Shown in pieces: positions 4,944 to 31,604 of a stretch of DNA of 64,000 bases (its first letter is position 1; the number at the start of each line of letters is the position of its first letter). Where the stretch lies: the NCBI GenBank assembly GCA_030141605.1, contig JAQGDQ010000563.1, forward strand, positions 16,293 to 80,292. Reading direction: 5' to 3'. The position numbers were made by a program, and so were the translations under genes. A model generated the notes under the pieces. The model was given only the letters and a program-made list of their open reading frames with translations. It had not been told where the DNA came from and did no database searches. The stretch is from Tubiluchus corallicola (Eukaryota > Animalia > Priapulida).

Positions 4944-5036
4944 CAGATATTGTTCTTGAGAATAAGAGACCAATGGCCACAGTCCAATACAAACAAGCCC
5001 TATAGACAATATGTGTCGATAGAAAAATGATAAAAC
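4944..5036 (-). CDS. PIGN: PIGN exon (VLSFFYRHILSIGLVCIGLWPLV...)
   Basis: VLSFFYR motif as in PIGN; ttgtag/gtaat; 93 nt. Confidence 0.93.
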
Positions 5037-9531: not shown

Positions 9532-9604
9532 TGTTGCCAAACTTGACTCCATAGAAACAGCGGCAGTAAGCAATAGATGTAATACATAACCGGGCTAGAT
9601 TGAA
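9532..9604 (-). CDS. PIGN: PIGN exon (QSSPVMYYIYCLLPLFLWSQVWQ)
   Basis: matches PIGN QACPWTYYVYGLLPLPIW; ttgcag/gtaagt; 73 nt. Confidence 0.92.
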
Positions 9605-10116
9605 CTGCAAGAAAAACATTCAATTTTTATTCATAACGAATGTGAAACAACAAATTCATCATCATCATCATCGTCATACGCCCGTCACGTCTATTGTAGA
9701 CATTGGGCAGGCAGAATTCTAAAATAAAAGAAATCTGCCTTCAGACAGGTAAACGCAGTAGTAATCCAGCAAAAAAACTAGACACTGCTACGTCAGTGGC
9801 TTGTCAGCACCACTTCCGAAAGAAACAACAAATTACTAGTGTTGTGTGTCAGTGGCGTAGCTGATGGGGGGAGGGGGGAGCAAAGAAAACAGCCACTCGC
9901 TCTGAACACATGTTTGAAAATTGGCAACTTTTTGTTAATGGAGACGTTACTTTATTTGACCAACCTGTCTTCCGTGTTTTTGAAACGAGCGTACATTTAC
10001 ACAACTCATTTGTCAAGGTCGTCTGATTAAATCAACGATCAAATTTCTACCCAAAGTCTCTTTAATAAAAGTTATGAGTAACATTAAAAATGCGGAAAGT
10101 TAAGTTATGTTCATCA

Positions 10117-10710
10117 GCCTTTTCAAAGTTTCAGCAATTGATGACGATTGTGAAAAGGTCAAAGGTTAAGTGTACCAGACATGGCATTTGTGTACACTTG
10201 ACAACGCCTCGCAGCCCATGCTGTTGTAATAGTAACACTTTTAACAGCTAGAACCTTACCTAGTTCATTTTTTCGTTGCCAAGTGAGATCCTGCTAGTAA
10301 ATCACTCTAGGCACAGAATAATGCATGATTAATCAAAGTCCAGGTAAAACAACTGAAGTTACTGAACTGATGTGCCAGTCGGCTTTTCTTTAAAAACACG
10401 TGTCATGTAACGATCATAGATAACATGTGTTGCTGTGGTACACTTAACCTTTGACCTACAGCAGCTGCACGTGTGCACAGCGAAACTGTGAAAGCCAAGC
10501 AAGATCCTGCTAATAAATCACCGTACGCACAGGCTAAAACAAATTTAATAAGGTCCACGTAAAACAGCTGAAGTTACTGAACTGATGCGGCAGACAGCTT
10601 TGCTTTACATAGACGGCACGAGACGGTTGTAGTTAACACGCATTGCTTTGGTACACTTAACCTTTGACCTACAGCAACTGCGCGTATGAACAGAGAAACT
10701 GTGAAAAGGC
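10117..10710 (+). mobile_element. Harbinger-like MITE copy A, with an internally duplicated right half
   Basis: termini GCCTTTTCA / TGAAAAGGC; subterminal inverted AGGTCAAAGGTTAAGTGTACCA; TCA/TTA flanks. Confidence 0.75.
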
Positions 10711-10820
10711 TTATTTATTCGAAGTGAACATTAAATTTACCAGTTAAATTTATCAGGTTAAAATGCAACTCAACTTGAAACAACAAGCAGATGTGTGAAA
10801 ACAGCAAAACTTCAACTTAC

Positions 10821-11516
10821 CAAACAGTAAAAAACAGATGATTAAAACTACGCCACTTAAAGACTTCACATTGTTTCTATCCCAGAATGCCCTGTCTAAT
10901 TGTTGCCCTCTGTGTGGAACAATGTCCGTGTGATTCTGGATGAGAAGCACGAAAACGTAAACGATCCAACCACAAAATATTGAGATTATGCACAAGCTGA
11001 GAAACGGCCTGTCGTAAGTCTGATAAAACTTTAACCCTTCCAAGGTCAACGAGATTAACTCTTTACTGGCATTATTGGCTTCGTCATGACTCTTGTTTCT
11101 CATGAGATTTTCTATTCTTCGTTGTTTCTCTTGTATCCTCGTTTTCGTCAGCATCGCAAACGGACGAAATAATAAAGAAATCGTGGTGAGCCTTTTCTCC
11201 TCTTCTTTTACTTTGTACTGTTCTGCCATCTGACGAGCATTCGTGAGCAACGCAGAGGACTTGAACTCGTCCGACGTACCTAGATAATCAATTGGGAGAA
11301 CTCCGACGGAATTCACGGGAAAAGGGATTCCGATTAAAGTCGCCATAAGTGGAGTTATGTCGGCCTGTTCTACGTCCGAGCGATGAAGATGATGGAGACC
11401 CCAGGAGATGCTAAGATCGTCCGCTTCGTTTGTCCTCAAGATAGGGCCACGAGTACCTGACCCCCATGCGACCAGTGGTGTTAATGTCTCCTGAGGGTGA
11501 CCCGTTCCATGTGACC
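10821..11516 (-). CDS. PIGN: PIGN large exon (GSHGTGHPQETLTPLVAWG...QADITPLMATLIGIPFPVNSVG...YQTYDR...)
   Basis: core of ORF 10753..11550; strong Mcd4/PIGN motifs; tttag/gtaagt; 696 nt; phase 1-1. Confidence 0.97.
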
Positions 11517-11609
11517 CTAAATAATGACAAATATTCAAATGATTAGACAATGCTTTTTCTAAATTTTGTTAAAAATTATTTACATTTCACTTGTATCTGA
11601 TCATAAGAA

Positions 11610-11996
11610 GTCTTTTCACAGTTTCGTTGTGCACATGTGCAGCTGCTGTAGGTCAAAGGTTAAGTGTATCACAGCAACACATGTTACCTACGATCGTGTC
11701 ATAACACGTGTTTTTAATGCAAAGCCGACTGGCACATTAGTTCAGTAACTTCAGTTGTTTTACGTAGACTTTACTTAATTATCCATTGGTCTGAGTGTAG
11801 ACTGATTTACTAGCAGGATTTTGCTTGGGAACAACAAAAAATGAACTAGGTAAGGTTCTGGCTAGCTGTTAAAACTGTTACTATTACAATAGCTTGGGTT
11901 GAGAGGCGTTGTAAAGTGTACACAAATGCGTTGTTAGGTACACTTAACCTTTGACCTTTTCACGATCATAATCAATCGCTGGAACTGCGAAAAGGC
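11610..11996 (-). mobile_element. Harbinger-like MITE copy B, inverted relative to A
   Basis: reverse complement of 10117-10495 along its length. Confidence 0.78.
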
Positions 11997-12076
11997 TTAC
12001 TTCCCAATTATTTTAAATATTCTAACAGCATTTCAAGCTTTAATGTGATCTAGAATTTGCGAGATTTTAAATTTAC

Positions 12077-12207
12077 CCCAGTCAGTCATGCCGTGGTCGG
12101 ATGTGAAGATGAAACTCGTCAGATTGTCGTCATCGTAGAAATTGCTAATTAGTGTAACGATCTCTTGTATTTTCTCATCCACTAATCTGATGTTGTCATT
12201 GTACTCC
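12077..12207 (-). CDS. PIGN: PIGN exon (EYNDNIRLVDEKIQ...FIFTSDHGMTDWG)
   Basis: alkaline-phosphatase-superfamily TSDHGM metal-binding motif; ttttaag/gtaaat; 131 nt. Confidence 0.96.
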
Positions 12208-12744
12208 CTTAAAAAAGAAATTTTAGAAATGTGACAATCAAAAAAAATATCATTTTAAAACAATGTTGAATACAAAAAAAAACTGATATCATTTCGAGAA
12301 AAATTTCAAAGATTCCATACTAACCTTTTAAGACATTATATTGGGTAAAAAGCACCCAAATGATTTATAAATTTAATAACAGTGTTAGGGTGTTTCATAA
12401 TCCCAAAATTCATTCAGGGCTGGACTGTCCTATAAGCTAGTATAGGCTACAGCTTAGGTCCCTCCCTCAAACTTTTGTAACATTTAATACAAACACTTAA
12501 GTCAAATTGTTTATTGCAGGCACTTGAAAACATTTATAGTTAAAACACTATAAGTTCATTATATAGCTTTTAATTTACAAAGCAGTTCAATTTGTTTAAG
12601 TTTATTTTCAAACACTTAGCTATTTGTTATTGTATCAATTTCTTTTCTATTGGTAAGCTATGTAAATATCGCTAAATAAGATAATAAGATATTTTATTAG
12701 GTAATCACAATTACAAATCACACAATACACACACCGATTATAAA

Positions 12745-13785
12745 GACACAATTACACACACATACAGTACTACAAAAAAACCTAAACCAGGTTAACAAGA
12801 ACACACTTACACACATATACAGCGCTACAAAAAACCTATACCACGTTAACAAGAACACACTTACACACATATACAGCGCTATGAAAAACCTATACCACGT
12901 TAACAAGAACACAATTACACACATATACAGCGCTATGAAAAACCTATACCACGTTAACAAGAACACACTTACACACATACACAGCACTACAAAAAACCTA
13001 TATCATGTTATCAAGAACACAATTACACACATATAGAACGCTACAAAAAACCTACACCACGTTATCAAGAACACAATTACACACATATACAGCGCTACAA
13101 AAAACCTATACCACGTTAACAAGAACACAATTACACACATATACAGCGCTACAAAAAACCTATATCATGTTATCAAGAACACAATTACACACACATACAG
13201 CGCTACAAAAAACCTACACCACGTTATCAAGAACACAATTACACACACATACAGCGCTACAAAAAACCTATACCACGTTAACAAGAACACACTTACACAC
13301 ATATACAGCGCTATGAAAAACCTATACCACGTTATCAAGAACACAATTACACACATATACAGCGCTACAAAAAACCTACACCACGTTATCAAGAACACAA
13401 TTACACACATATACAGCGCTACAAAAAACCTATACCACGTTAACAAGAACACAATTACACACATATACAGCGCTACAAAAAACCTATATCACGTTAACAA
13501 GAACACAATTACACACATATACAGCGCTACAAAAAACCTATAGCACGTTAACAAGAACACAATTACACACATATACAGCGCTACAAAAAACCTATATCAT
13601 GTTATCAAGAACACAATTACACACATATAGAACGCTACAAAAAACCTATACCACGTTAACAAGAACACACTTACACACATATACAGCGCTACAAAAAACC
13701 TATAGCACGTTAACAAGAACACAATTACACACATATACAGCGCTATAAAAAACCTATACCATGTTATCAAGAACACAATTACACA
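12745..13785. repeat. 54-bp minisatellite, ~19 copies
   Basis: unit caagaacacaattacacacatatacagcgctacaaaaaacctataccacgttaa. Confidence 0.95.
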
Positions 13786-14077
13786 AGTCAAACTCAACAA
13801 TTTAAACCAAAGACACTACACTTTTAAACCAATAATAATGTTTTTAAATAAATACATAGCAAAGTGATTGGAAAATGTCTAACCCATTTCCCTAAAAGAT
13901 CAGTTGTAATGGTAATCATTTTCGTTATACAGTAAAGCACAGTTTATTAGACTCACAGTTAATAGAATCAGTCACTTAATTGACTCAAAAATGTCTGGTT
14001 CCCAGATCCTATTAATGGGCCGTTCCTATTAATTATTTTATTAATTCACGTATGTAAATTAGTATTCTTAAATAATT

Positions 14078-14441
14078 GTGTTGGCATCCTTCTGTCTCGG
14101 AAGACAATGGAATGTGCGCCAAGAGAGTCAGTTATTGATCACATTGATGGAGCTGCAGTATCGACTGTGGCTGAGCAGTGCGATCCTTGAACGTCTCCAG
14201 GGCGCACGCATGGGCAAGGGGTATGGAGATACTGAGTTGCCCAGACAACAGGAACCCCCTCTCTTCGTCTTTGGTGTAGTCCAAAGGAAAGCGGAGCGAT
14301 ACGTTTGGCACCAGGTTGGCTGCAGGAGCTGCCGGAGTCAGTGAGCATGCTGCACTGGTCGGGGCTCCACTCCTGATTTAGAAGGTTTACTCCTCTACAC
14401 ATGGCCGTTGGGTCACATGACCTCTAGTCGTTGGCTGCAAA
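14078..14441 (-). mobile_element. RTE-derived bipartite non-autonomous retroelement (SINE-like)
   Basis: 11-bp TSD CTTAAATAATT (14067-14077 and 14442-14452); minus strand reads RSRIALLSHSRYCS then CCATTGTCTTCCGAGACAGAAGGATGCCAAC, recalled as an RTE 3' end; GC-rich 5' part. Confidence 0.72.
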
Positions 14442-14687
14442 CTTAAATAATTACTTATAGGAATTTTGACATTAATTTGTTTCTAAAATTCATTTAAAAG
14501 CCTTTGCAATGCATAGTAAGGTGATGACTCATACTGGTACAGTAGTAATATACTAAACCCTTCGGCTAATCGATTCAGTCGGTTAACTGGGTCAAAATAT
14601 TTCCATCCCAAAGTGAGTCTATTAAGTGGTGCCTACTGTAGTGTTACTATCTAAGCATTCTAAGCATTACCCCCCCCCCCCCCCAGT

Positions 14688-15380
14688 ATGCACCAGTTCA
14701 GTTTTGGATCTATTACTGTAGCTACTAGCGTAATTCGTTCGTGCGAAACGGAGACGTATCTTGGCCACATAATTTCTAGAGATAATAAGAATGACATAGA
14801 CATTATTAGGCGAAGAAATATTTACTATGTTAGAGCAAACAGTATCTTGAGAAAATTTTATCATTGTACAAATAGCGTTAAAACTTGTTTGTTCAATTCG
14901 TAATTCATTCTATGGTATGGCAATGTGGCGGCATTTTTATAACTACAGTTTAACTAAACTTAAAGTAGTTCATAACATCTCTAAACGGAAACTTTTCACT
15001 TATTCATACGATGAGAATGCTAGAATATTTTCAGTAAATCATAATGTTACAAACTTTGATGTTATACACAGGAAAATGGCTTACAGTTTGTACATGAGAG
15101 TATTGTGTAGTACAAATTTATTAATTAAAGCTTTAACTGAAAGTGGCTTACACTTCTGACATTAGAAGACAGTGGAGGATCTTGTTATATTGTAATTATA
15201 GTTAGGCACTTTCTGGTGCTAAGCATCACTGGATAATTTATCTTTATCTTTTGTGTATGTAGTATGTAATGTTGTAGATATCGTATAATTGTGGTGCATG
15301 TATTTTTTATGTTTGTTTTTTATTTTGTGAGTGTAAATATGAATTTTGATTCAAAATAAAGCGTTAAATGAAATAAAATA
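14688..15380 (+). mobile_element. 5'-truncated non-LTR retrotransposon (RT C-terminus plus 3' UTR)
   Basis: YLGHIIS..NDIDI.RR...Y.RAN.ILRKF..C...VK..LF; broken frame; AATAAA and A-rich tail. Confidence 0.8.
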
Positions 15381-15833
15381 TAAAAGATGTTTAGTTACAT
15401 GGTTTTGCCTAACGTGACATGGATCTATGAGAATGAATAGAATGAAAGGTTTTATTGTTATTGTGAATTTGAAGTTGAAGCTAGGACAGTTATTCTCACT
15501 GGTGCTGTAAGTGAACTTTTATGCTTGAAGTAAAATGCTCTTCAGTATAAACAATCTGGTTATTGCTTAACGTATGTGAGCACAATTCTGTCTTCCATTC
15601 ATTTTAGGAAGACTCAGAACTCAGCAGGGATGAAAAAACCTTGTCAAGAATTTGGAAGAATTTTTGCTAAAGCTTTTGTTTTTAAAAGCGAATATTTAAA
15701 ACGATTTAACCGAGATAGCTTGAGCTTGACCAGCATTCAGGTAGTAGCCATTGGTGTGAGACAAGACCATCAACCTGTTATTGTTTTGTTGATCTTTACT
15801 ATGGTTCTATTTAAAATCATTTACATTATATCA

Positions 15834-15857
15834 TGTGTGTGTGTGTGCGTGTGTGTG

Positions 15858-15894
<37 letters not shown>

Positions 15895-16810
15895 TGTATG
15901 TGTGTTGTGTGTGTGTGTAGTGTGTGTGTGTGTGTAGTGTGTGTGTGTGCGTGTGTGTGTGTGTGTGTGTGTAGTGTGTGTGTGTGTGTGTGTGTTGTGT
16001 GTGTGTGTAGTGTGTGTGTGTTGTGTGTGTGTGTGTTGTGTGTGTGTGTTGTGTGTGTGTAGTGTGTGTGTGTTCTGTGTGTGTGTGTAGTGTGTGTGTG
16101 TTGTGTGTGTGTGTAGTGTGTGTGTGTGTGTGTGTTCTGTGTGTGTGTGTTCTGTGTGTGTGTAGTGTGTGTGTGTGTAGTGTGTGTGTGTGTTCTGTGT
16201 GTGTGTGTAGTGTGTGTGTGTTGTGTGTGTGTGTGTTGTGTGTGTGTGTTGTGTGTGTGTAGTGTGTGTGTGTTCTGTGTGTGTGTGTAGTGTGTGTGTG
16301 TTGTGTGTGTGTGTAGTGTGTGTGTGTGTGTGTGTTCTGTGTGTGTGTGTTCTGTGTGTGTGTAGTGTGTGTGTGTGTAGTGTGTGTGTGTGTTCTGTGT
16401 GTGTGTGTAGTGTGTGTGTGTTGTGTGTGTGTGTGTTGTGTGTGTGTGTTGTGTGTGTGTAGTGTGTGTGTGTTCTGTGTGTGTGTGTAGTGTGTGTGTG
16501 TTGTGTGTGTGTGTAGTGTGTGTGTGTGTGTGTGTTCTGTGTGTGTGTGTTCTGTGTGTGTGTAGTGTGTGTGTGTGTAGTGTGTGTGTGTGTTCTGTGT
16601 GTGTGTGTAGTGTGTGTGTGTTGTGTGTGTGTGTGTTGTGTGTGTGTGTTGTGTGTGTGTAGTGTGTGTGTGTTCTGTGTGTGTGTGTAGTGTGTGTGTG
16701 TTGTGTGTGTGTGTAGTGTGTGTGTGTGTGTGTGTAGTGTGTGTGTGTAGTGTGTGTGTATGTGAGTGTGTGTGTGTGTGTGTGTGCGCGCGAGCGAGTG
16801 AGTGTGTGAG
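15834..16810. repeat. Interrupted (TG)n tract with 200-bp higher-order periodicity
   Basis: TG runs broken by TA/TT/TTC; matching ORFs start at 16014, 16214, 16414 and 16614. Confidence 0.93.
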
Positions 16811-16954
16811 TGTATGTATAGCAATAATATACTAAACCCTTCGGCTAATTGATTCAGTCGGTTAATTGGGTCAAAATACTTCCATCCCAAAGTGAGTCTA
16901 TTAAGTGGTGCCTACTGTAGTATTAAAGAAGTTTAATTACACAGGTTTGCCTAC

Positions 16955-17079
16955 CGTGACATGGGTCTATGAGAATGACCTTGTGTGTCCAGTCCCAGCA
17001 AATGTAAGAAGAAAACAACTTTATCCTGGCTTATCTTCTCAGCTAATTCTTCATCTTTTTTAGCTTTCTCAAAAAATTC
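16955..17079 (-). CDS. PIGN: PIGN exon (EFFEKAK...VVFFLHLLGLDTQGHSHRPMS)
   Basis: FFLHLLGxDTxGH motif; ctcag/gtagg; 125 nt. Confidence 0.96.
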
Positions 17080-17189
17080 CTGAGCACAAAAATAGTCAAA
17101 ATGTCGCATTAATTTAAATGAATCTATTATAACAAAATAGTCAGAAAATACCAGCAGTTAAAAGTTCACCGAAATTCCACATACAGTAA

Positions 17190-17696
17190 ACCTTTTCACA
17201 GTTCCCACGATTGATGATGATCGTGAAGAGGTCAAAGGTTAAGTGTACCAGACAACACATTAGTGTACACTTGACAAAGCCTCACAGCCTATGCTGTTGT
17301 AATAGTAAGTTTTGACAGCCAACTAGAACCTTACCTAGTTCATCCCAAGCAACATCCTGCTAGTAAATCACTCTACGCACAGACTAGTGCATAATTATGT
17401 AAAGTCCACAAAAAACAACTGAAGTTACTAAACTGATGTGGCAGACTGCTTTGCTTTACCCACACATCATGTGACAGTTGAAGTTGAGATGCGTTGCTGT
17501 GGTACACTTAACCTTACTAAACTGATGTAGCAGACTGCTTTGCTTTACGCACACATCATGTGACGGTTAAAGTTAAGATGCGTTGCTGTGATACACTTAA
17601 CCTTACTAAACTGATGTGGCAGACTACATTGCTTTACCCACACGTCATGTGACGGTTAAAGTTAAGACGCATTGCTGTGATACCCTTAAGCTTTGA
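17190..17696 (+). mobile_element. Harbinger-like MITE copy C with an internal 90-bp triplication
   Basis: same left end as copy A; ttactaaactgatgt... occurs three times. Confidence 0.75.
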
Positions 17697-17706
17697 ATAC
17701 ACTCAC

Positions 17707-17813
17707 TTTGACTTTGTCAAAAACCCAGACGTCTAACTTTGATGCGTCTTCGGAGGCAAAATCCTCAAATTCAGCTTCGTACATGTGAGTGAAGATGTGG
17801 GATCCACTCGCTC
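17707..17813 (-). CDS. PIGN: PIGN exon ([36 protein letters not shown])
   Basis: EDF...KLDxWVFD motif; ctacag/gtgag; 107 nt. Confidence 0.96.
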
Positions 17814-17879
17814 CTGTAGATTACAACATGAGATAATAATTATAATTAATTATGACTGTGATTTGTCAGAAGTTTTTTA

Positions 17880-18012
17880 TGAACCATTACGGTTTATTTT
17901 ACCAATTATTACCTACTGCGGGTAATGAGTTGGAGAATTAGACAGTGAAAAATTGTTGACCAGTCAGGATTTGAACCAGTGACCTGGGATTAGTACTTCC
18001 ATGCTCTATGAC
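17880..18012 (-). mobile_element. tRNA-derived SINE fragment
   Basis: minus strand TAGAGCATGG...CAGGTCACTGGTTCAAATCCTG (B box); cut off at the Kolobok-like TTAA. Confidence 0.5.
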
Positions 18013-18689
18013 TTAAAGGATAAGAAAAGAGGTTCCTGAAGTTGGTTTCAGAAAAATCGCCTTAAAAAATTATAATACTTTATAACAATTTTATGTGTAT
18101 ATCGTACTCGCACTGAAAGGAATTTTTTGTTTTCATTTTAAATCTCCCGCAATACTGTTCCGAAGTCGCCATTACATGACGCCATGCACCAAACGTAAAT
18201 CAGGGGAAGAAAAGGCAATGTTAAATTATGTCTCAAAAGACTTTCCGTGCAAATCTATATTGCTTAAATTTTCGCTTACCTGCTAGAAAGACTTATGTAA
18301 CTAGAAAAGAAAATTATTAATTATTCAAAATGTTTTCGCCAATTGGTAAAATGTCGCTGACTCACCCTACAGGGTGCACTACTTACTAAGCGAAAAACGT
18401 ATTTTTAATCTTATTGACAAGATACAGTTATATTAAATTTTATTCAGTTGGTGACTTGTGCTCTGATTATTTTTTCAAACTTTACAAAATGTTACCTAAA
18501 CTTGTTTCAAATGACCTGTCGTGAAAATGGCTGCATCTAACGGTCATCGTAGGAGTTTAAATTTACATGTTTTAGACAACGTTACTGCTGACTGAAGTCC
18601 TGCATGTAAAAAGGCAGTATGTAAGTGATATAATATATCAAAACAAATTTTTCAAGCTTTATGTTTATGAAGGGTTTTCTTGTGCTTTA
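18013..18689. mobile_element. Non-autonomous TTAA-inserting DNA transposon (Kolobok-like)
   Basis: ttaaAGGATAAGAA...TTCTTGTGCTtta termini; homologous to 31605-32205. Confidence 0.65.
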
Positions 18690-19444
18690 GGTTACCAGCC
18701 CAGCATGACAGAGCAGACCTAAGATTTCCTCCTTCTAGCTCAGACTCCAACATCGCCACCTGTACCTGTAACAGTCTGGAATAGGTCTTATAAGACCTAT
18801 GACGTTTCTGCTACTGTATGAGCACAGACATAACTAAATGATTACAAATTAGGTATTGTTCTATTCAGCAGGATCTCGGCTGTCCAATCGTGCTGTTTGT
18901 TTAAACATTTATAAGTGATTTAACTCCAAGAAAATGTGCCTTATTCAGGCACTCCAACTTAGCCTATCGAGTAGCTTAGTCTGGTGTACACTTGCGTGAT
19001 CGTACACACAATTTTATTGATTACCTGCTTGCTACAACTCAAGAGAAGTGTCTGGTGTACAGAGTTCCAGGAAAAACCAACCAATCAGCCAAAGAGAAAT
19101 TAAGGTAATTTCATCTTTTAATAGGATTTCCTTCTTAAAAATAGAGTAGACTTGAGGCCAAAGTTTATCAGAGTGTTGTGTCTGGATAGTTGAAATTTTC
19201 TACATTAGCTGATTTCACACAACACAAGTGATACTGTACATTGTTACAGTGCAAACACTGCAGTTACTGAAAGTTTTCAATTTTCCGGTCAAAAATCGAA
19301 TTTTAATTTATTTAGGTAAGCAAATGTATTTCATATATAATTATGCACGAAAGTCCATTGTGTGGGGAATAGAAACCTACAATAATTGTCACATATAACC
19401 TAATCGCTGCTTAGTGAGAGCAGTTTTTTACGAAACCATTCAAA

Positions 19445-19893
19445 ATGCAACAAACGCTTACGGTCCTGAAGAAGTTAAGTGTGGGATGTTACTGTATTTA
19501 TTTTTTTACTAACACACAGCAAACACTTACAGTCCTGAAGAAGTTAAGTTTGGGATGTTACTGTATTTATTTTTTTACTAACACACAGCAAACACTTATG
19601 GTCCTGAAGAAGTTAAGTTTGGGATGTTACTGTATTTATTTTTTTTACTAACATACAGCAAACACTTACAGTCCTGAAGAAGTTAAGTTTGGGATTTTAC
19701 TGTATTTATTTTTTTACTAACACACAGCAAACACTTATGGTCCTGAAGAAGTTAAGTTTGGGATGTTACTGTATTTATTTTTTTACTAACACACAGCAAA
19801 CACTTACAGTCCTGAAGAAGTTAAGTTTGGGATGTTACTGTATTTATTTTTTTACTAACACACAGCAAACACTTACAGTCCTGAAGAAGTTAA
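19445..19893. repeat. 69-bp tandem repeat, ~6.5 copies
   Basis: cagcaaacactta...gtcctgaagaagttaag recurs at 19517, 19586 and onward. Confidence 0.95.
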
Positions 19894-19944
19894 AGCATTA
19901 CTGTGAACTGAAATAGAGTTCAGAAACTTGTTCAGCATGCTTAC

Positions 19945-20043
19945 CTTTTGCAAACATTGGCAAGATGTCTGGGCTGCCCCAACACCAAGTGTAACGACTT
20001 TCATTAAACAATGAGTCGAATTCAACAGGGTTTTCTTTCCAGC
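19945..20043 (-). CDS. PIGN: PIGN exon ([33 protein letters not shown])
   Basis: near-identical to the human PIGN segment; aacag/gtaag; 99 nt. Confidence 0.97.
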
Positions 20044-21178
20044 CTGTTACAAGATAAAAACTGTATCAATATAAAATAAGCTTAGAATTATCCATATTTG
20101 GAAGAACAAATGTAACTACGTCAAAATAGAGTTCATTGCCGACAGACTTCGAACAAACTGTTCATTATCAAGGCATCTAAGAGATAGAAATTTACCAAAA
20201 TTTAGAAACAACATTGAAATGCAATTCAGTAGTTAATAACTAAGACAGATAGTATAGAACTGACAGTTTTGTTACAACTGACATATTTGTTAGTTTGTGG
20301 AGTGTTAAATAGTTTCGTACCAATCAAGATATGTAATTTGTTAAATTATCTATCTAATATTATATCATATATCTTTTGGCTATTAACTACTGAATTGTAT
20401 TTCGATGTTGTTTCTAAATTCTGGAAAATTTCTTTCTTTTGGAAGCTCTTGATAATGAACAGTTTTGTTTGAAGCCGGTCAGCAATAAATTCCATTTTGA
20501 TGTAAAATAAGTTTAGTATAATATCAGGTGATTATAAAATATTATTGCTACGTTGTTATGGAACAAGTTATAAACCCCAATATCGTAACACGAGAAACGG
20601 AAAACTAGAATTTGTTTGGCACATGAGATAATGCCAGCGCTGCCTCCTGTCCTTGACAGATCAGATACGTTTGTCTTTCTTGGTCACTACACGACTTCGC
20701 AGTCTTCTTAAAGGAAAAACCGGACCCAATCTTATAAACTTGTAGCTCAAAACGTCTATCCGACAAAACCTGCTCATTTTTCAAGAAAGACTTATGCGAA
20801 CGAACCGCAGAAACGTAACCTCGCATTCGGTGCATCTAGTTCTTCGCTGTTACATGCACTTCATCATTCGCGGTTAGACGTGCAGTAGCAGCTGCATGCC
20901 GGAAACACATTGCACAAAAAGCAGGTGCCGTACCTCTGAGTTCAAATATATTCAATTGAGATCACAGAGGTGAAGCAGAATTTTGGACTTTTAAACTTAA
21001 AATTTGAGGACTTTTCGTATATCACGCTGCATGTTGAACTACATTTTCATTTAGCATATCACAACATCAGAAAGAATATAATATACGAACTATGAACCAA
21101 TGTAGCTAGACAAATAACGATAAACCACGAGGAGTTTATGCTTACAAACAATTACCTTTAGTTACTGAAGCCACATAC

Positions 21179-21300
21179 CTTTAGTTACCGAAGCCACATC
21201 CTCATAGAAGCCAGCAATAACTGCAACATTACCTGGTCTAGATTCAGTAGGAACACGTGTGTGAGAAACACCCCAGGATCCAACTTCGTCAATGATATGC
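21179..21300 (-). CDS. PIGN: PIGN exon ([40 protein letters not shown]); 5'-most exon found
   Basis: [12 protein letters not shown] catalytic motif; ttacag/gtatgt; 122 nt; starts in phase 2. Confidence 0.96.
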
Positions 21301-24300
21301 CTGTAAGAAACACAGTGATGATATGAGGCACACAATTATATGCCTGTAAGAAACACAGTGATGATGAGATGATATGAGGCACACAATGATATGCCTGTAA
21401 GAAACAAAGTGATGATATGAGGCACACAATGATATGCCCGTAAGAAACACAATGATGATATGAGACACACAATGATACGCCTGTAAGAAACACAATGATG
21501 ATATGAGACACACAATGATATGCCTGTAAGAAACACAGTGATGATATGAGGCACACAATGATACGCCTGTAAGAAACAGAGTGATGATATGAGACACACA
21601 ATGATATGCCTGTAAGAAACACAGTGATGATATGAGGCACACAATGATACGCCTGTAAGAAACACAATGATGATATGAGACACACAATGATACGCCTGTA
21701 AGAAACACAATGATGATATGAGACACACAATGATACGCCTGTAAGAAACACAATGATGATATGAGACACACAATGATATGCCTGTAAGAAACACAATGAT
21801 GATATGAGGCACACAATGATACGCCTGTAAGAAACACAGTGATGATGATATGATATGAGGCACACAATGATACGCCTGTAAGAAACACAATGATGATATG
21901 AGGCACACAATGATACGCCTGTAAGAAACACAATGATGATATGAGGCACACAATGATATGCCTGTAAGAAACACAATGATGATATGAGACACACAATGAT
22001 ATGCCTGTAAGAAACACAGTGATGATATGAGGCACACAATGATACGCCTGTAAGAAACACAGTGATGATATGAGGCACACAATGATATGCCTGTAAGAAA
22101 CACAGTGATGATATGAGGCACACAATGATATGCCTGTAAGAAACACAGTGATGATATGAGGCACACAATGATATGCCTGTAAGAAACACAATGATGATGA
22201 TATGATATGAGGCACACAATGATACCCCTGTAAGAAACACAATGATGATGAGATGATATGAGGCACACAATGATATGCCTGTAAGAAACACAGTGATGAT
22301 ATGAGGCACACAATGATACGCCTGTAAGAAACACAATGATGATATGAGACACACAATGATACGCCTGTAAGAAACACAATGATGATATGAGACACACAAT
22401 GATACGCCTGTAAGAAACACAATGATGATATGAGACACACAATGATACGCCTGTAAGAAACACAATGATGATATGAGACACACAATGATATGCCTGTAAG
22501 AAACACAATGATGATATGAGACACACAATGATATGCCTGTAAGAAACACAATGATGATATGAGACACACAATGATACGTCTGTAAGAAACAGAGTGATGA
22601 TGATATGATATGAGGCACACAATGATACGCCTGTAAGAAACAAATGAACACACAATGATACGCCTGTAAGAAACACATGATGATATGAGACACACAATGA
22701 TAGCCTGTAAGAAACACAATGATGATATGAGACACACAATGATATGCCTGTAAGAAACACAGTGATGATATGAGGCACACAATGATACGCCTGTAAGAAA
22801 CAGAGTGATGATGATATGATATGAGGCACACAATGATACGCCTGTAAGAAACACAATGATGATATGAGACACACAATGATATGCCTGTAAGAAACACAGA
22901 TGATGATATGAGGCACACAATGATACGCCTGTAAGAAACACAATGATGATATGAGACACACAATGATACGCCTGTAAGAAACACAATGATGATATGAGAC
23001 ACACAATGATATGCCTGTAAGAAACACAGTGATGATATGAGGCACACAATGATACGCCTGTAAGAAACAGAGTGATGATGATATGATATGAGGCACACAA
23101 TGATACGCCTGTAAGAAACACAATGATGATATGAGACACACAATGATATGCCTGTAAGAAACACAGTGATGATATGAGGCACACAATGATACGCCTGTAA
23201 GAAACACAATGATGATATGAGACACACAATGATATGCCTGTAAGAAACACAGTGATGATATGAGGCACACAATGATATGCCTGTAAGAAACACAGTGATG
23301 ATATGAGGCAAATGTGTGCCTGTAATAAACACAGTGATGATGAGATGATATGAGGCACACAATGATACGCCTGTAAGAAACACAATGATGATATGAGACA
23401 CACAATGATACGTCTGTAATAAACACAGTGATGATGAGATGATATGAGGCACACAATGATATGCCTGTAAGAAACACAATGATGATATGAGACACACAAT
23501 GATACGTCTGTAAGAAACAGAGTGATGATGATATGATATGAGGCACACAATGATACGCCTGTAATAAACACAGTGATGATGAGATGATATGAGGCACACA
23601 ATGATACGCCTGTAAGAAACACAATGGTGATATGAGACACACAATGATACGCCTGTAAGAAACACAATGATGATGAGATGCTATGAGGCACACAATGATA
23701 TGCCTGTAAGAAACAGAGTGATGATGATATGATATGAGGCACACGATGATATGCCTGTAAGAAACACAATGATGATATGAGGCACACAATGATACGCCTG
23801 TAAGAAACACAGTGATGATGAGATGATATGAGGCACACAATGATACGCCTGTAAGAAACACAATTATGATATGAGACACACAATGATACGCCTGTAAGAA
23901 ACACTATGATGATGAGATGATATGAGGCACACAATGATATGCCTGTAAGAAACACAGTGATGATGAGATGATATGAGGCACACAATGATATGCCTGTAAG
24001 AAACACAGTGATGATGAGATGATATGAGGCACACAATGATACGCTTGTAAAAAACACAATGATGATATGAGGCACACAATGATATGCCCGTAAGAAACAC
24101 AGTGAAGATATGAGGCACACAATGATATGCCTGTAAAAAACACAATGATGATATGAGACACACAATGATACGTCTGTAATAAATACAGTGATGATGAGAT
24201 GATATGAGGCACACAATGATATGCCTGTAAGAAACACAATGATGATATGAGACACACAATGATACGTCTGTAAGAAACAGAGTGATGATGATATGATATG

Positions 24301-25291
24301 AGGCACACAATGATACGCCTGTAATAAACACAGTGATGATGAGATGATATGAGGCACACAATGATACGCCTGTAAGAAACACAATGATGATATGAGACAC
24401 ACAATGATACGCCTGTAAGAAACACAATGATGATATGAGGCACACAATGATATGCCTGTAAGAAACACAGTGATGATATGATATGAGGCACACAATGATA
24501 TGCCTGTAAGAAACAGAGTGATGATGATATGATATGAGGCACACAATGATACGCCTGTAAGAAACAGAGTGATGATGATATGATATGAGGCACACAATGA
24601 TATGCCTGTAAGAAACACGATGATGATATGAGGCACACAATGATACGCCTGCAAGAAACACAGTGACGATGCAATGATATGAGACACACAATGATACGCC
24701 TGTAAGAAACACAATGATGATGAGATGATATGAGGCACACAATGATACGCCTGTAAGAAACACAGTGATGATATGAGGCACACAATGATATGCCTGTAAG
24801 AAACACAGTGATGATATGAGGCACACAATGATATGCCTGTAAGAAACACAATGATGATATGAGGCACACAATGATATGCCTGTAAGAAACACAATGATGA
24901 TATGAGGCACACAATGATACGCCTGTAAGAAACACAGTGATGATATGAGGCACACAATGATACGGCTGTAAGAAACACAGTGATGATATGAGGCACACAA
25001 TGATATGCCTGTAAGAAACACAGTGATGATATGAGGCACACAATGATATGCCTGTAAGAAACACAATGATGATATGAGGCACACAATGATACGCCTGTAA
25101 TAAACACAGTGATGATGAGATGATATGAGGCACACAATGATATGCCTGTAAGAAACACAGTGATGATATGAGACACACAATGATACGTCTGTAAGAAACA
25201 CAATGATGATATGAGACACACAATGATACGCCTGTAAGAAACACAATGATGATATGAGACACACAATGATACACCTGTAAGAAACACAATG
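21291..25291. repeat. ~4-kb satellite of 43-bp units (51-bp variants), ~90 copies, derived from a PIGN 3' splice site
   Basis: unit aatgat(a/c)gcctgtaagaaacaca(a/g)tgatgatatgag(a/g)cacac; the first copy overlaps exon 21179-21300. Confidence 0.97.
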
Positions 25292-25724
25292 TGAAAGTTA
25301 TAACTGTATATTTAGGTGCTGCCATCTATTGATTCGTTACTTGTTTATTCGAAACATTTACTAGTTGAATTCACCCCTTAATGCAATTGTATGTTCCAAT
25401 GAATATTCAAACTCACTGTATCTCCCCTATTTTTCTGTAATGGGATATGTGAAGCCCAGTTCTTGCATACTTCTCTACATATATAAACTGGCTAGATTTC
25501 ACTGCTAGTCACTCTCTGTCTCAGGCAGTGCAGTCATGTTACACACTGTCTCTCTGTCACACACTCAGTGCTGTGCAGCAGTTGTGATCATCATTCTACT
25601 TGTGCATTTTACTCATGTGTATTTAGTGCAATAAAAGTGTTTCAGTTCTTGTGCAAATATTTAATCTTGTGTTTAGTTGTTTATACCAGTGTTCAATTTC
25701 GTCTTCACAAATATCTTTCACATA

Positions 25725-25745
25725 TGGTCCTTCGAGCCGGATTCG
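25725..25745 (+). promoter_or_regulatory. Primer-binding site complementary to the tRNA-Tyr 3' end
   Basis: TGGTCCTTCGAGCCGGATTCG, 2 nt after the 5' LTR. Confidence 0.9.
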
Positions 25746-25799
25746 AGCCCAGACAGCGCACAGGGATAACCACACAGGACTTCTACTTCTGTCGTCAAC

Positions 25800-28700
25800 A
25801 TGACGGAGCAAGTGGAGAAAACTAAACGAGTTCGTCGAGCTCTGAGATCTTCACTCACTAAGGCTGACGAGCTAAATCAAGAGATTCCGAGGAAAGAAGA
25901 GGTAAGCCTTCTCTTATCAATTGTTACTGAAAGGGCAGAACGCCTGTTTGAAGCAGACAACAACATCTTGTCACAGTTGTTAGACGCTGACGCCGAACAG
26001 GTATCACTCGATGAGGAAGTCGAATCTGCTGATGAGTACAAATGGCGAATTACACGTGAAGTACATCGTGCCAATCAATTTCTTGGCCCTGCTTCCGCAG
26101 CTGACCATCCTACCACTGGTCCTGCCGCAGGTGTCAGCCGAGCTGACACTCTCTCTGACAATTCACTTGCTCGTTCAACAGCTTTTACTCGCTTACCTAA
26201 GCTAATACTGCCGAAATTTGATGGCCAGATTCTGGAATGGCTGGCGTTCTGGGAGCAGTTCGATGCTGCTGTTCATTCTCATGAGCATTTAGCACCTGTG
26301 CAGAAGTTCACTTACTTGAAAGGTCAACTATGCGGTGAGCCTGCCACAGCCATTGCCGGGTTGCCTCTTTCTTCAGCTAATTATGCAACCGCCATTCATC
26401 TACTTGAGCGTCGGTTCGGACGCAAAGAAGCACTAATAAGTGCGCATATGTCAGCACTTCTTCGATTGCAACCATGCACCTCTCTCGATGCGAAGCCACT
26501 TCGTAAAGTGCTCGATCAACTTGAGACAAACGTACGGGGTCTCGAAGCCCTCCATGCCACTTCGGATTCTTATGGTCGGTTACTAATACCGGTCCTGTTG
26601 TCTCGTATTCCTTCACATCTTCGTCTCCAATGGGCAAAGAAGGATGCGGACGAAGAAGGTACAGTCACGGAACTTATGGAGTTTCTCAGAGATGACATCC
26701 AAGCTCGTGAGCGTGTCAGAGAAGTCAACTACTTCGTCGAGAAGCCTCCTCAACCAACTGTGAAACAGTGTTCTAGTAAACGTTCTACATTTCTGACAAG
26801 GGGCACCAATAACAGTCAGTCATGTTTATTGTGTGGCGATTCGTGCAGAACCCCTTTCCATTGTCAGAAGTTCTTAAGCTTGTCCGTTGATGCTCGACAG
26901 CAGCTCATCAGGGACAGACACTTGTGTTTCAATTGTTTATGGTCACATCGATTACAACAGTGCACATCCAAGAATGTGTGTCAAGAATGTGGTTCCTTGC
27001 ATCATACACTGCTGCATCGTGTTTCTTCAAACAGTGCATTCAGCGGAAGTTCTCCTAGTGTTGTTTGTGATCCGCCTTCTTCTAAACTCAACTGCATGGT
27101 GAAAACTACCAGCAATGGTCACCGCACCGTTCTACAGACAGTTCTTGTCCACATGGATGGAATTGATCGTCCGGTTCGTCTACTCCTGGATAGTGGATCG
27201 GAAGAGACTTACATCAGCGAAGCTCTCAGTCAACAAATTCAACGCAAACGGGCTACTCAATGTAAGTTGTTTCAAGTTCAAACTTTTGGTGGGACGAATA
27301 CTTCCTCAATTAACAGACAGAAATATGAGTTCAAACTGCGTAGTATGTATGATGATCAATGGTATTTTATGAATTGTTGGGTTGTTCCCTTCATATGTTC
27401 ACCCCTTCAGGGTGTTGAATTGTCGTGCTTAACTATGTTACCACAAGGTTTAGATTATGCTGATGATTACAGTCAATTACAATTGCCTATTGATGTATTG
27501 GTTGGTAATGATGCCCTTCCTCACATCTTTACCCCTAATGCTCCCATCTTCCACTCCAATCTTATGCTGATTCCTACCATCTTTGGTTGGACCTTGAGTG
27601 GTTGCGTTCCTAACTCCCTGTCACAACATTCCTCCTTGGTTCCTCTTGTACGCACTCTGTACTCTAGGAATGCAGATGCCAATATCTGTGAATCTTGGTG
27701 GCAGTTGGAGTCCATGAACATTCATCCTGACACGGAAAAGGACGAGTTTCCTTTATCCATCAAACACATTGATGGTCGATACGAGACTACTTTGCCATGG
27801 GCTGGGTTCGAACGTCCACAGTTCACTAAACAACAAGCCTTGGCACATAGTCGATCTTTCTACAGGTTGCCTCCAGAACGGCAACATCGATACAGAGACT
27901 CTTTAAAAGAGTGGCAAACCCTTGGAATCATTGAAGACGCACCTAACACAGATGGTGGCAATTTCCTACCCCATCATAGTCTCATCCAAGGAACAAAGTT
28001 GCGAGTTGTTTTCAACGGCTCAGCAAAGCCTACCATTGGCCTCAGCATCAACGATTGTCTGGTAACCGGTCCCAACATGCTCAGCGACCTTTTAGCCATT
28101 CTGGTACGTTTCCGCAGTCACCAAATTGGTCTAATTGCTGATATCGAGAAAGCCTTCCTGATGATTGGAATCTCGCCTCCAGATCGAGAATTTCTCAAAT
28201 TCATTTGGGACTTGGACGGCAAACAGCACGTCAGCAGATTTGTTCTGCAAGCCCCGCCATTCTTCATGCCATCATTGCGATGCATCTAGACAGCCTACCG
28301 GCGACTTCAACAGTCACCTCTCTTAGGCACAATATGTATGTCGACAATCTCGTATCCGGTTGCGACTACGAAACCGACATCGATTCATTCAAATCCGAAG
28401 CTATTCAAGCCTTCGCCAGTGCCGGCATGAACCTTCGTGCTTGGCAGACTTCTTCCTCTTCTACAAGAGAACGGTGGGAGTGCAACACTGATGACTTTAC
28501 CAAAGTTCTTGGCCTCAGCTGGTGCCATCAATCTGATACCATAGCCGCCAGCCTGAAGCTTTCATCTGAACCTCCCATCACTAAGCGTCAAATGCTAGCC
28601 GAAATCTCCAAGATTTTCGATCCTCTGGGATTTATTTCCCCCTTCACCATACGTCTCAGGATTCTCTTTCAGTCACTCTGGAGAGAGTCACTCAACTGGG

Positions 28701-30724
28701 AAGATGAACTACCTTCCAGTACTGCAGTACAATGGGGTCGTTTCATTGAGGAAACACAGCAACACGAATCCAGGATACACTTTCCTCGATACGTACCAAT
28801 GACTTCACACTCTGAACTTCACATCCTTTGTGATTCTAGTGAGGCAGCTTATGCAGCTGTTGCGTACATCAAGACAGACACCAATGTCGACTTACTCATT
28901 TCGAAGAGCAAACTAGCCCCACTTAAACCACAGACTCTGACTCTTCCACGTTTAGAGCTGATGGCTGCTCTTCTTGGGGCTCGTCTAGGGACTTACATCC
29001 AGCAGCATGTACCAGTCCTATCATCATGTCTCAGACATTTCTACTCGGACTCAATGGTAACACTCGGATGGATACGCAGTATGCCAAAAGACGTGTTCGT
29101 GAGGAATCGAGTTCGTGAGATCCACACACTCTCGCAAGCATGCGAGTGGTCTCACGTACCTAGTTCGCAGAATCCCGCAGATCTGCCAACTCGAGGTTGC
29201 AAGCTACTCTACTTGCAACACCTGGACCTTTGGAGACATGGTCCACCTTTTCTCACACTCAGGGAGGAGTCGAACTACTCTGTCTGCGAACAGAAGTCCT
29301 CCACTTTGCTCACTGTAACAACTCCTCTTACAGACTCAGAGAAGACACCACTTTTTCCTGTGGACCGATGGTCTTCCTTACAACGAGCTATAAACATAAC
29401 CTCTTATGTGCTCAGATTCGTTCATAATTCACGACTCCTCAAGTCAACTCGCGTCGGCGGACCACTTACGCCACACGAGAGAGTCAAGGCGATAAACGCT
29501 CTTCTCAGAGACAGTCAGTATGTTTACAACTCTGCAGACATACTTAACTTGCAAAAAGATGGTGATGTAACTCCCTCTTCTTCACTTTGGAATGCTCGTC
29601 CGCAGTGGTCCAAATCTCTTCAACTCATTATGTGTACACCGAGAAATGGTGAGCAGATGATACCTTGGTTACACCCAGGCTCGCCACTTACATCACTTAT
29701 CATCATGGATTGTCATCACAAACTTTATCATCAAGGCGTTTCCACAACAGCTACAGAAGTTAGCAAATGCTACTGGCTCCCAAAGCCTCACAGGACTGTC
29801 AAGAAGATTCTCCAGAAGTGCGTTTCCTGCAAGAAGCTTCAAGGACGACCATACACTTCTACTGAAGGCAGTCTTCCACCATTCAGAGTCACAGAAGCGC
29901 GACCATTTGCGCATACTGGACTTGATCACTTCGGCCCATTGTATCTTGGCGACCAGACCAAATCATGGGTTCTTCTGTTCACATGTGCCGTCACTAGAGC
30001 CATACACATGGAAGTTGTCACCTCACTCAATGAGAAGGACACTGGACTAGCTATTCGTCGGTTCTTAGCACGCCGTGGACCCGCACAATTCTACAGCGAC
30101 AACGCTCGATCATTCGTCAGCTTGGCGAAACACATGCAGAGGAGTCTAACCTGGACCTTCATCCCTGAAGCTGCACCCTGGTGGGGAGGTTACTGGGAAA
30201 GACTCATCGGAACTATCAAACGTTCTTGTCGCCAGACACTTGGCAGCACATCTTTATCTCTGACTGAACTCACCACAGTGGTCACAGAGTTAGAGGAACG
30301 CATCAATCGGTGCCCTCTCGTTTTGTCCGGAGATGAACCTTTGACTCCAGGACACTTCATCTTTGGAGCTACTCCACCAGCACTTTTGGACATAGGCATC
30401 CACGATTCACCACCTCCTGAAGATCTACAGAGGAGATGGAAACATCGTCTCACCATCAGCACACATCTTTGGTCCAGATGGAGGAACGAGTACCTTCTAT
30501 CCTTATGACAATGGAGAACCAAGACAAGATCTCCAGCTACTCCGAAGGAAGGAGACATCGTTCTCGTCCATTCCAAGCCTCTACCTCGATGGCGTTGGCC
30601 ACTAGGGAGGATCGAATCACTGATTCCCGGTCGAGACGGAAATCCACGAGCCGCCTACATCAGGAGTCACGGACGCCTTACTCGCCGTCCCCTTTGTCTC
30701 CTCTACCCCTTAGAATGCACCTGA
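25800..30724 (+). pseudogene. BEL/Pao gag-pol polyprotein broken by a frameshift (~28240) and a TGA (30506-30508)
   Basis: LPKL.LPKFDG gag, three Cys/His knuckles, LLDSGS protease, ADIEKAF and YVDN RT, LPRLEL RNase H, GLDHFGP/SDN/WERL integrase; frame reopens after the TGA (GDIVLV...WPLGRI...LYPLE). Confidence 0.93.
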
Positions 30725-31604
30725 TCTTTAATGACATACCTCCTAATTTGCATTGTTTCATTTATTTGACATTTTGTATTGTATTGACATGTATTGACAC
30801 TCTAATTATTTTCGTTTCAAGGTGGGAGGATGTGAAAGTTATAACTGTATATTTAGGTGCTGCCATCTATTGATTCGTTACTTTAAACATTTACTAGTTG
30901 AATTCACCCCTTAATGCAATTGTATGTTCCAATGAATATTCAAACTCACTGTATCTCCCCTATTTTTCTGTAATGGGATATGTGAAGCCATGTTCTTGCA
31001 TACTTCTCTACATATATAAACTGGCTAGATTTCACTGCTAGTCACTCTCTGTCTCAGGCAGTGCAGTCATGTTACACACTGTCTCTCTGTCACACACTCA
31101 GTGCTGTGCAGCAGTTGTGATCATCATTCTACTTGTGCATTTTACTCATGTGTATTTAGTGCAATAAAAGTGTTTCAGTTCTTGTGCAAATATTTAATCT
31201 TGTGTTTAGTTGTTTATACCAGTATTCAATTTCGTCTTCACAAATATCTTTCACAGGCACTGCTGTTGCTAACGATACTGCTGCTTTACTTTGCTGCTGC
31301 AGTAGCCGTTCTTGCTGCCGTGTTTTAAGTAGTACAATGAAGAGTAAATAAAAAATCATGAATCGACTGTAACGTAAACTGAATTAAATTTAGAGTTAAT
31401 TAAGTTAAAAACTATTTCAAGATGAAAAAGCTCGTTATTTTTCAGTTCAAACGTTTCACGAGATGTTGTGTTAACAGTCTAGAAGTTTAGGGGGAAGTAT
31501 GGAAGCAGTATATATAAGCATTAGAACATGTTAATAGCTATATCTCCGAAATCATTTAAAGAAGTTGTTCAACTCGGTAGTTCACTAATAAATGTCAGAC
31601 TTTT

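What the first reader, a model, noticed from the sequence alone, without database searches (positions are those of the whole stretch)
21291..25291. A satellite built from a working 3' splice site: ~90 tandem acceptors in front of a PIGN exon
Seen: on the sense (minus) strand each 43-bp unit reads GTGTG(T/C)CTCATATCATCA(T/C)TGTGTTTCTTACAG|GC(A/G)TATCATT. That is a yUnAy branch-like CTCAT, a pyrimidine-rich tract, CAG and the first 10 nt of exon 21179-21300. The last copy is the real acceptor, so the pre-mRNA offers ~90 near-identical acceptors over 4 kb. Established: exon definition favours the acceptor nearest the downstream donor. Inference: the array may act as a decoy or splicing-factor sink, making PIGN output copy-number dependent, or it may give a ladder of extended exons (+43, +94 nt and so on).
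Basis: partly seen in the sequence, partly recalled or inferred. Interest (0 to 1): 0.8.

Follow-up and report, generated by a model that had tools for sequence, protein, structure and literature searches.

The report
Giant splice-acceptor repeat in PIGN gene
In an invertebrate's PIGN gene, the end of an intron plus the start of the next exon is repeated 88 times head to tail over 4 kb; every extra splice site is predicted to give a premature stop, so the copies are likely spliced past, as with the "mirage" repeats already known from lancelets.

Summary
Window 21290-25288 (minus strand) has 88 full units (58 of 43 bp, 25 of 51 bp, 5 other) plus a partial one. 86 of 89 unit ends are CAG, and the last is the true acceptor of PIGN exon 21300-21179. 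Seven exons from there join into a stop-free 450-aa frame. Contig depth in two public runs (one sample, possibly the assembled one) is about 40-90 times that of the neighbouring single-copy contigs, so this is not a 1-2-unit artefact. The 'ladder of extended exons' fails as protein: all 85 decoys give a premature stop. It matches the 'mirage' minisatellites of amphioxus, which are reported not to disturb splicing. This scan has noted the same kind before on other DNA (46 notes matched my word search; up to ~286 copies). No RNA covers this exon, so splice choice and copy-number effects are untested. Extras: the same exon's donor is also duplicated, a young Bel/Pao LTR element abuts the array without matching target-site repeats, and the gene's first coding exon is not in the window. 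Verdict: new, large member of a known kind; likely neutral. Interest 0.2.

The parts
21290..25289 (-). Acceptor-spanning minisatellite ('mirage'): 88 full units of mostly 43/51 bp + a partial first unit; each = ~33 nt of intron end + 10-11 nt of exon start; 85 decoy CAG acceptors, 3 dead ends (2 CGG, 1 CAA)
21301..21333 (-). Authentic 3' splice site region (branch-like CTCAT with A at -24, pyrimidine tract, CAG ending at 21301)
   Evidence: the only acceptor that keeps the PIGN frame open through the exon
21179..21300 (-). PIGN coding exon, 122 nt, residues ~76-117 of mollusc PIGN, containing the conserved PTESRPG motif (followed by Asn here, His in 205 of 206 other hits with the motif)
21153..21199 (-). 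Second, small boundary duplication at the donor of the same exon (23 bp x 2 in the window); gives a second donor 23 nt downstream that would shift the frame; reads show at least a third copy
   Evidence: loose end and 6-10x depth in X1, about 1.5x in X2
21336..21338 (-). TAA found at this position only in the last decoy unit; it ends 20 of the 29 in-frame extensions
25290..31255 (+). Bel/Pao-type LTR retrotransposon abutting the array's upstream edge: LTRs 25290-25722 and 30831-31255 (422 matches, 3 mismatches, 8 gap bases), ORFs with DUF1759, Peptidase_A17 and integrase zinc-binding domains; flanks do not form a matching target-site duplication
9532..20043 (-). Six downstream PIGN exons (20043-19945, 17813-17707, 17079-16955, 12207-12077, 11516-10821, 9604-9532), all AG/GT-bounded, in frame with the exon above; further exons by homology near 5036, 3664 and 575

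Best explanation
This is a 'mirage' minisatellite: a 43-bp piece spanning the intron end and exon start of an intact PIGN exon is repeated 88 times, likely by ordinary repeat turnover, and the extra acceptors are likely spliced out with the intron. Shown: the unit anatomy, the intact reading frame from the last acceptor, a premature stop for every other acceptor, and a duplicated 6-unit block. Inferred: an initial short duplication of the junction was amplified by slippage or unequal exchange. The spliceosome likely pairs the exon's donor mainly with the nearest, authentic acceptor. Any leak to the +43 or +94 sites would give frameshifted RNA that nonsense-mediated decay would likely clear. 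The array would then persist because it costs little, not because it does a job.
For: Anatomy matches the definition of mirages in PMC3087553 (passages): tandem duplications of an intron 3' end plus exon 5' part, many but not all keeping AG, with RT-PCR suggesting normal splicing. PMC3902484 (passage) says the same for Adh and troponin C. In human CBS c.844_845ins68 (52 nt intron + 16 nt exon duplicated) the downstream acceptor is used (PMC7490669; PMC1802585). Seven exons give a stop-free 450-aa PIGN frame, 58% identical to scallop PIGN. In run X5, a diverged relative, the 5 exon differences that the tool lists (of 14 in the aligned stretch) are all synonymous third positions (codons read by hand), so the exon is under purifying selection. 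All 85 decoys lead to stops. Turnover signs: units 20-25 and 36-41 are a 282-nt block with 3 differences, 24 rare substitutions lie among the 83 units of 43 or 51 bp, and three acceptors have decayed. Tandem arrays with period of 23 or more fill 15% of this window. X5's single contig runs about 98 nt into the intron behind a near-identical 13-nt acceptor end (12 of 13 bases), and no X5 contig lay on the units. That weakly suggests the array is not conserved.
Against: No RNA covers this exon, so 'spliced past' is inferred from other genes. 12 decoys are identical to the true site from -33 to +11, and the two nearest would give exons of ordinary size. In CBS the choice is attributed to G runs between the sites, and this unit has none. 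In ABCA7 a splice-site VNTR does change splicing with length. Both ends of the same exon are duplicated, while 0 of 14 other PIGN junctions tested had a tandem copy (one chance 18-mer match 1.5 kb away). The first coding exon is not in the window.
Confidence: 0.75

Rival explanations
1. Copy-number rheostat: the decoys draw enough U2AF/U2 snRNP, or are used often enough, that longer alleles lower intact PIGN mRNA through frameshifted or exon-skipped RNA and NMD.
For: ABCA7 precedent: a 25-bp VNTR that includes the exon 18 donor; exon 19 skipping rises 3.2- to 4.1-fold with length, and one-unit retention is seen (PMC5954066 passages). Here 12 perfect decoys exist, and all decoy products are predicted NMD targets. 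Skipping the 122-nt exon would also shift the frame.
Against: Amphioxus mirages are reported not to disturb splicing. In ABCA7 the unit-retention isoform did not change with length. There is no conservation signal, and X5 seems to lack the array (one low-depth contig). No allele sizes or RNA are at hand.
Confidence: 0.14
2. The array does not matter because this PIGN copy is cut off from its 5' end, by a rearrangement or a mis-join at the LTR element, or is a decaying paralogue.
For: An HMM of PIGN N-termini finds no exon for residues 1-75 in the 43 kb upstream. The LTR element's flanks do not form a matching target-site duplication. A His found in 205 of 206 other hits with the motif is Asn here.
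Against: The 450-aa frame is intact with canonical splice sites. The Asn codon is unchanged in the X1 contig and in X5, where the five listed differences are synonymous. One unrelated hit also has Asn (P0183). X1 shows no second, diverged copy of the exon at 85% or more. A long first intron with nested opposite-strand genes is ordinary (my knowledge).
Confidence: 0.06
3. Assembly artefact: the true locus has only one or two units.
For: No laid contig spans the array; the supporting runs are one sample that may be the assembly's source.
Against: 40 distinct unit sequences with regional structure (18 of 26 long units lie in positions 13-42) and a 6-unit block duplication; depth about 39-94x, against under 1x simulated for 2 units.
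Confidence: 0.03
4. Protein ladder: in-frame decoys add Cys/His-rich inserts to the luminal domain of PIGN.
For: The units are nearly free of stop codons on the sense strand (long open frames); 29 of 85 decoys are in frame.
Against: All 29 stop inside the array in this allele: 20 at the TAA at 21338 and 9 earlier. The insert would fall just before the conserved PTESRPG motif. An allele without that TAA is possible and was not checked.
Confidence: 0.02

Closest known systems
'Mirage' minisatellites of amphioxus (globin BflGb6 acceptor-side, BflGb9 donor-side, Adh3, troponin C, PGBD5); PMC3087553 and PMC3902484, passages read; the original Adh paper was not held and is seen only as cited
   Same: Tandem copies of an intron 3' end plus exon 5' part; most but not all keep the AG; unit size within the 10-72 bp given for Adh3; both acceptor and donor boundaries can duplicate.
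   Different: 88 units over 4 kb, against 3-6 units in BflGb6; both boundaries of one exon are duplicated; it abuts an LTR element; the host is not placed by my tree; splicing is not tested here.
Human CBS c.844_845ins68 (PMC7490669 and PMC1802585, passages; PMC2630376 passages, added little)
   Same: Duplication of an intron-end/exon-start junction; the downstream copy serves as acceptor.
   Different: One extra copy, not 85; the choice is attributed to G runs between the sites, and this unit has none.
Human ABCA7 intron 18 VNTR (PMC5954066, passages)
   Same: Kilobase-scale VNTR that includes a splice site; one-unit mis-splicing gives a frameshift.
   Different: Donor side, not acceptor; a length effect on splicing was measured there and is untested here.

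Membership tests
mirage minisatellite (as described in PMC3087553) | Minisatellite-like head-to-tail array | tested here: met
   88 units, period 43/51
mirage minisatellite (as described in PMC3087553) | Unit spans an authentic intron/exon boundary of a protein gene | tested here: met
   ~33 nt intron + 10-11 nt exon; last copy opens a PIGN exon in a stop-free 450-aa frame
mirage minisatellite (as described in PMC3087553) | Many but not all units keep the splice signal | tested here: met
   86 of 89 unit ends are CAG
mirage minisatellite (as described in PMC3087553) | Signs of tandem-repeat turnover within the cluster | tested here: met
   282-nt six-unit block duplicated with 3 differences; shared variants clustered by region. 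The longest exact block is 4 units, reached by 3 of 300 shuffles
mirage minisatellite (as described in PMC3087553) | Length differs between alleles or individuals | tested here: inconclusive
   No allele sizes. X5 shows no unit contigs; the donor-side repeat has at least 3 copies in reads against 2 in the window
mirage minisatellite (as described in PMC3087553) | Normal mRNA is made from the authentic site | not testable with these tools
   No RNA holder listed; the one guessed RNA run laid nothing on this exon
splicing-regulatory VNTR (ABCA7 type) | Isoform share or expression changes with repeat length | not testable with these tools
   Needs alleles and RNA
recursive-splicing (ratchet point) array | AG followed directly by a strong donor (AG|GT consensus recalled) | tested here: not met
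   1 of 88 units starts with GT; no GTAAG, GTGAG, GTATG, GTAGG, GTAAA or GCAAG in the array

The most novel reading that the evidence does not exclude
A young LTR retrotransposon landed about 31 nt upstream of the acceptor, and the repair or instability at that site seeded the amplification. The far flank of the element begins with the same 5-mer that lies within 2-3 nt of the start of the unit's intronic part. The resulting array acts as a length-dependent brake on PIGN splicing, made safe by a stop codon in the last unit that sends in-frame mis-splicing to decay.
Probability: 0.08. Interest if true: 0.6.

Novelty: new member of a known kind. Interest (0 to 1): 0.2.

Why it matters
As it most likely stands, it adds one more large example that animal spliceosomes tolerate dozens of near-perfect decoy acceptors. 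It also gives a ready-made substrate for testing how position and exon context, not local sequence, pick a 3' splice site: 12 decoys are identical to the true site over 44 nt. If array length tuned PIGN, it would be a heritable dial on GPI-anchor synthesis and an acceptor-side counterpart of the ABCA7 VNTR. Nothing here shows that. The scan has noted larger arrays of this kind elsewhere (unchecked notes), so this locus is not uniquely suited.

Tried and rejected
No whole genome is held, so the genome-wide survey of repeats on splice sites could not be run. No RNA holder was listed for the exon region. The guessed RNA run X6 laid nothing on this exon (it has one 88%-identical piece on exon 17813-17707); this is no evidence either way. 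PDB search with the exon: one spurious hit. Host placement: a tree of the 450-aa frame with 22 chosen PIGN hits left the window's protein in no supported group, so 'priapulid' rests on earlier unchecked notes only. Recursive splicing was rejected. Pseudogene reading of the His-to-Asn change is mostly rejected; a paper search on that residue gave nothing of use (listing only). 'Fail-safe stop' as a selected feature is not supported: 30 of 531 single changes in the last 180 nt would make an in-frame stop, and there are about 0.3 rare changes per unit, so roughly 1 in 15-20 by chance, noticed after the fact. Whether reads carry the TAA could not be seen. Order of LTR insertion and array growth: not resolved (LTRs 0.7% apart, units about 5% apart). 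Paper searches returned nothing; others returned no paper on this locus. The 'mirage' search gave 7 papers, 2 relevant, both on amphioxus. Two papers were not held. Supplements were not opened; the BflGb6 alignments there could refine the comparison.

Full report
Observation. Cut at the acceptor motif on the minus strand, it has 88 full units and a partial first one: 58 of 43 bp, 25 of 51 bp, five of other lengths, 40 distinct sequences, the 43-mers about 5% apart. 86 of 89 unit ends are CAG; two are CGG and one is CAA. Each unit is about 33 nt of intron end plus the first 10-11 nt of the exon. Thirteen sites, the true one included, are identical from -33 to +11. The 15-mer acceptor motif is found nowhere else in the window.

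The gene. The exon 21300-21179 matches residues 76-117 of mollusc PIGN at 76% identity. With six downstream exons, all bounded by AG and GT, it gives a stop-free 450-aa frame, 58% identical to scallop PIGN (the first try had four exon boundaries misplaced and was corrected). A His present in 205 of 206 other hits with the PTESRPG motif is Asn here (15 more hits lack the motif). The X1 contig over the exon and a contig from a diverged relative (run X5, depth 3.9, 14 differences in 104 nt) list no change at that codon. The five X5 differences that the tool lists are all synonymous (codons read by hand). The exon therefore looks functional. The exon for residues 1-75 was not found in the 43 kb upstream. 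It is either beyond the window, behind a long intron holding opposite-strand genes, or separated by a rearrangement or mis-join. The protein tree did not place the host; earlier unchecked notes on this genome call it a likely priapulid.

Is it real? Laid on 21060-21480, summed contig depth over the first four units is about 94 times the exon contig's in run X1 and about 39 times the adjacent single-copy contig's in X2. A simulation from the window gave under 1x for two units, at most 6x for ten, 12-51x for forty and 17-175x for all. The tool warns that such depth is no copy number, and X1 and X2 are one sample that may be the assembly's source. With the internal structure (units 20-25 and 36-41 form a 282-nt block with 3 differences; 18 of 26 long units lie in positions 13-42), a 1-2-unit artefact is unlikely. 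No contig spans the array.

What would the decoys give? Assuming the phase-2 intron implied by homology, all 85 decoy CAGs lead to a premature stop. 56 are out of frame. 29 are in frame but stop inside the array, 20 of them at a TAA that only the last decoy unit has at that position. The nearest are +43 and +94 (frameshifts), +137 (dead, CGG) and +180 (in frame, stopped). So in this allele there is no protein ladder. The array holds none of six strong donor motifs tested, and only one unit begins with GT, so recursive splicing or internal mini-exons have no support.

(a) The donor of the same exon is also duplicated (23 bp x 2, 21153-21199). The frame-keeping donor is the first, formed at the unit junction. 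X1 shows a loose end for a third copy and 6-10x depth, X2 only about 1.5x. None of 14 other PIGN junctions tested has a tandem copy. (b) A Bel/Pao-type LTR element (25290-31255; LTRs with 3 mismatches and 8 gap bases; Pfam DUF1759, Peptidase_A17, integrase zinc-binding) starts exactly where the array ends. Its flanks do not match as a target-site duplication. The far flank begins with a 5-mer that lies near the start of the unit's intronic part, which could be a remnant of the target site or chance. (c) Tandem arrays with period of 23 or more cover 15% of the window, so minisatellites are common here. (d) X5 shares 12 of the last 13 intron bases, its contig continues about 98 nt into the intron, and no X5 contig lay on the units: a weak hint, from one low-depth contig, that the array is lineage-specific.

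Mechanism. Shown: anatomy, intact frame from the last acceptor only, turnover signs. Inferred: a short duplication of the junction was amplified by slippage or unequal exchange; the exon's donor is paired mainly with the nearest acceptor; any leak is frameshifted and likely cleared by NMD; the array is tolerated, not selected (0.75). Rivals: length-dependent loss of correct splicing (0.14), a gene copy cut off from its 5' end (0.06), artefact (0.03), protein ladder (0.02). No RNA covers this exon, so the splice choice itself is untested. Against my reading: 12 decoys are locally perfect, the nearest two give ordinary exon sizes, and the G runs credited for the choice in CBS are absent.

Comparison. 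PMC3087553 (passages) describes 'mirages' in amphioxus: minisatellite-like duplications of an intron 3' end plus exon 5' part (BflGb6, 3 or 6 units), also of donors (BflGb9) and in Adh3 (10-72 bp units). Many but not all keep AG/GT, they vary in length, and they apparently do not disturb splicing. PMC3902484 (passage) adds troponin C and PGBD5. Human CBS c.844_845ins68 duplicates 52 nt of intron and 16 nt of exon, and the downstream site is used (PMC7490669, PMC1802585; passages). ABCA7's donor-containing VNTR shows that length can matter (PMC5954066, passages). PMC10078293, a catalogue of human splicing-associated repeats, was seen as a listing only. The Adh and the 2007 PNAS tandem-array papers were not held and are known here only from a reference list. 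Four structural features of mirages were tested and met; length polymorphism is inconclusive; normal splicing could not be tested. My searches found no paper on this locus. The scan's own index returned 46 notes from at least 17 genomes for my words; the 8 shown are all acceptor arrays of this kind, up to about 229 and 286 copies (unchecked).

Verdict. Real and striking to look at, but a new, large member of a known kind and most likely neutral. Interest 0.2. The boldest reading not excluded is an LTR-seeded, length-dependent brake on PIGN with a built-in stop (probability 0.08, interest 0.6 if true).

Noticed in passing
window 21228-21230 (-): PIGN's near-invariant His after PTESRPG is Asn; unchanged in the X1 contig and in a diverged relative (X5) whose listed differences are synonymous, so probably a lineage-specific substitution in the conserved motif. 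One other hit of 206 has it (P0183).
   Followed up: partly
window 21153-21199 (-): Donor-side 23-bp duplication of the same exon; reads suggest more copies than the window's two (6-10x depth in X1, about 1.5x in X2 of the same sample; the disagreement is unexplained).
   Followed up: partly
window 25290-31255 (+): Young Bel/Pao-type LTR retrotransposon directly abutting the array, two overlapping ORFs, LTRs over 99% identical, no matching target-site duplication; the far flank starts with a 5-mer found in the repeat unit.
   Followed up: partly
window 21301-64000: No exon for PIGN residues 1-75 within 43 kb upstream; either a very long intron with nested genes or a break near the LTR element.
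   Followed up: partly
window 56640-57617 (+) and 60843-61943 (+): Two long uninterrupted ORFs on the strand opposite PIGN: a Sulfotransfer_2 family protein and a 366-aa frame with no Pfam hit that looks like a glycosyltransferase by eye (unverified).
   Followed up: partly
window 21288: The X1 contig has another base than the window here (Asp to Glu in the exon); heterozygosity looks high elsewhere too (10 differences in 193 nt at 20608-20800).
   Followed up: no
window 19451-19893 and 17425-17693: Further minisatellites (69 bp x 6.4; 89 bp x 3) begin about 50 and 14 nt after PIGN donors without including them; the 69-bp unit holds an acceptor-like and a donor-like motif on the sense strand, and both lie in or beside dispersed high-copy repeats by read depth.
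   Followed up: no
window 21290-25288, unit structure: The 43-bp unit has internal 20/23-bp self-similarity (TRF sub-periods; the exon-start motif recurs in the intronic part), so it may be a dimer of an older ~23-bp junction duplication.
   Followed up: partly
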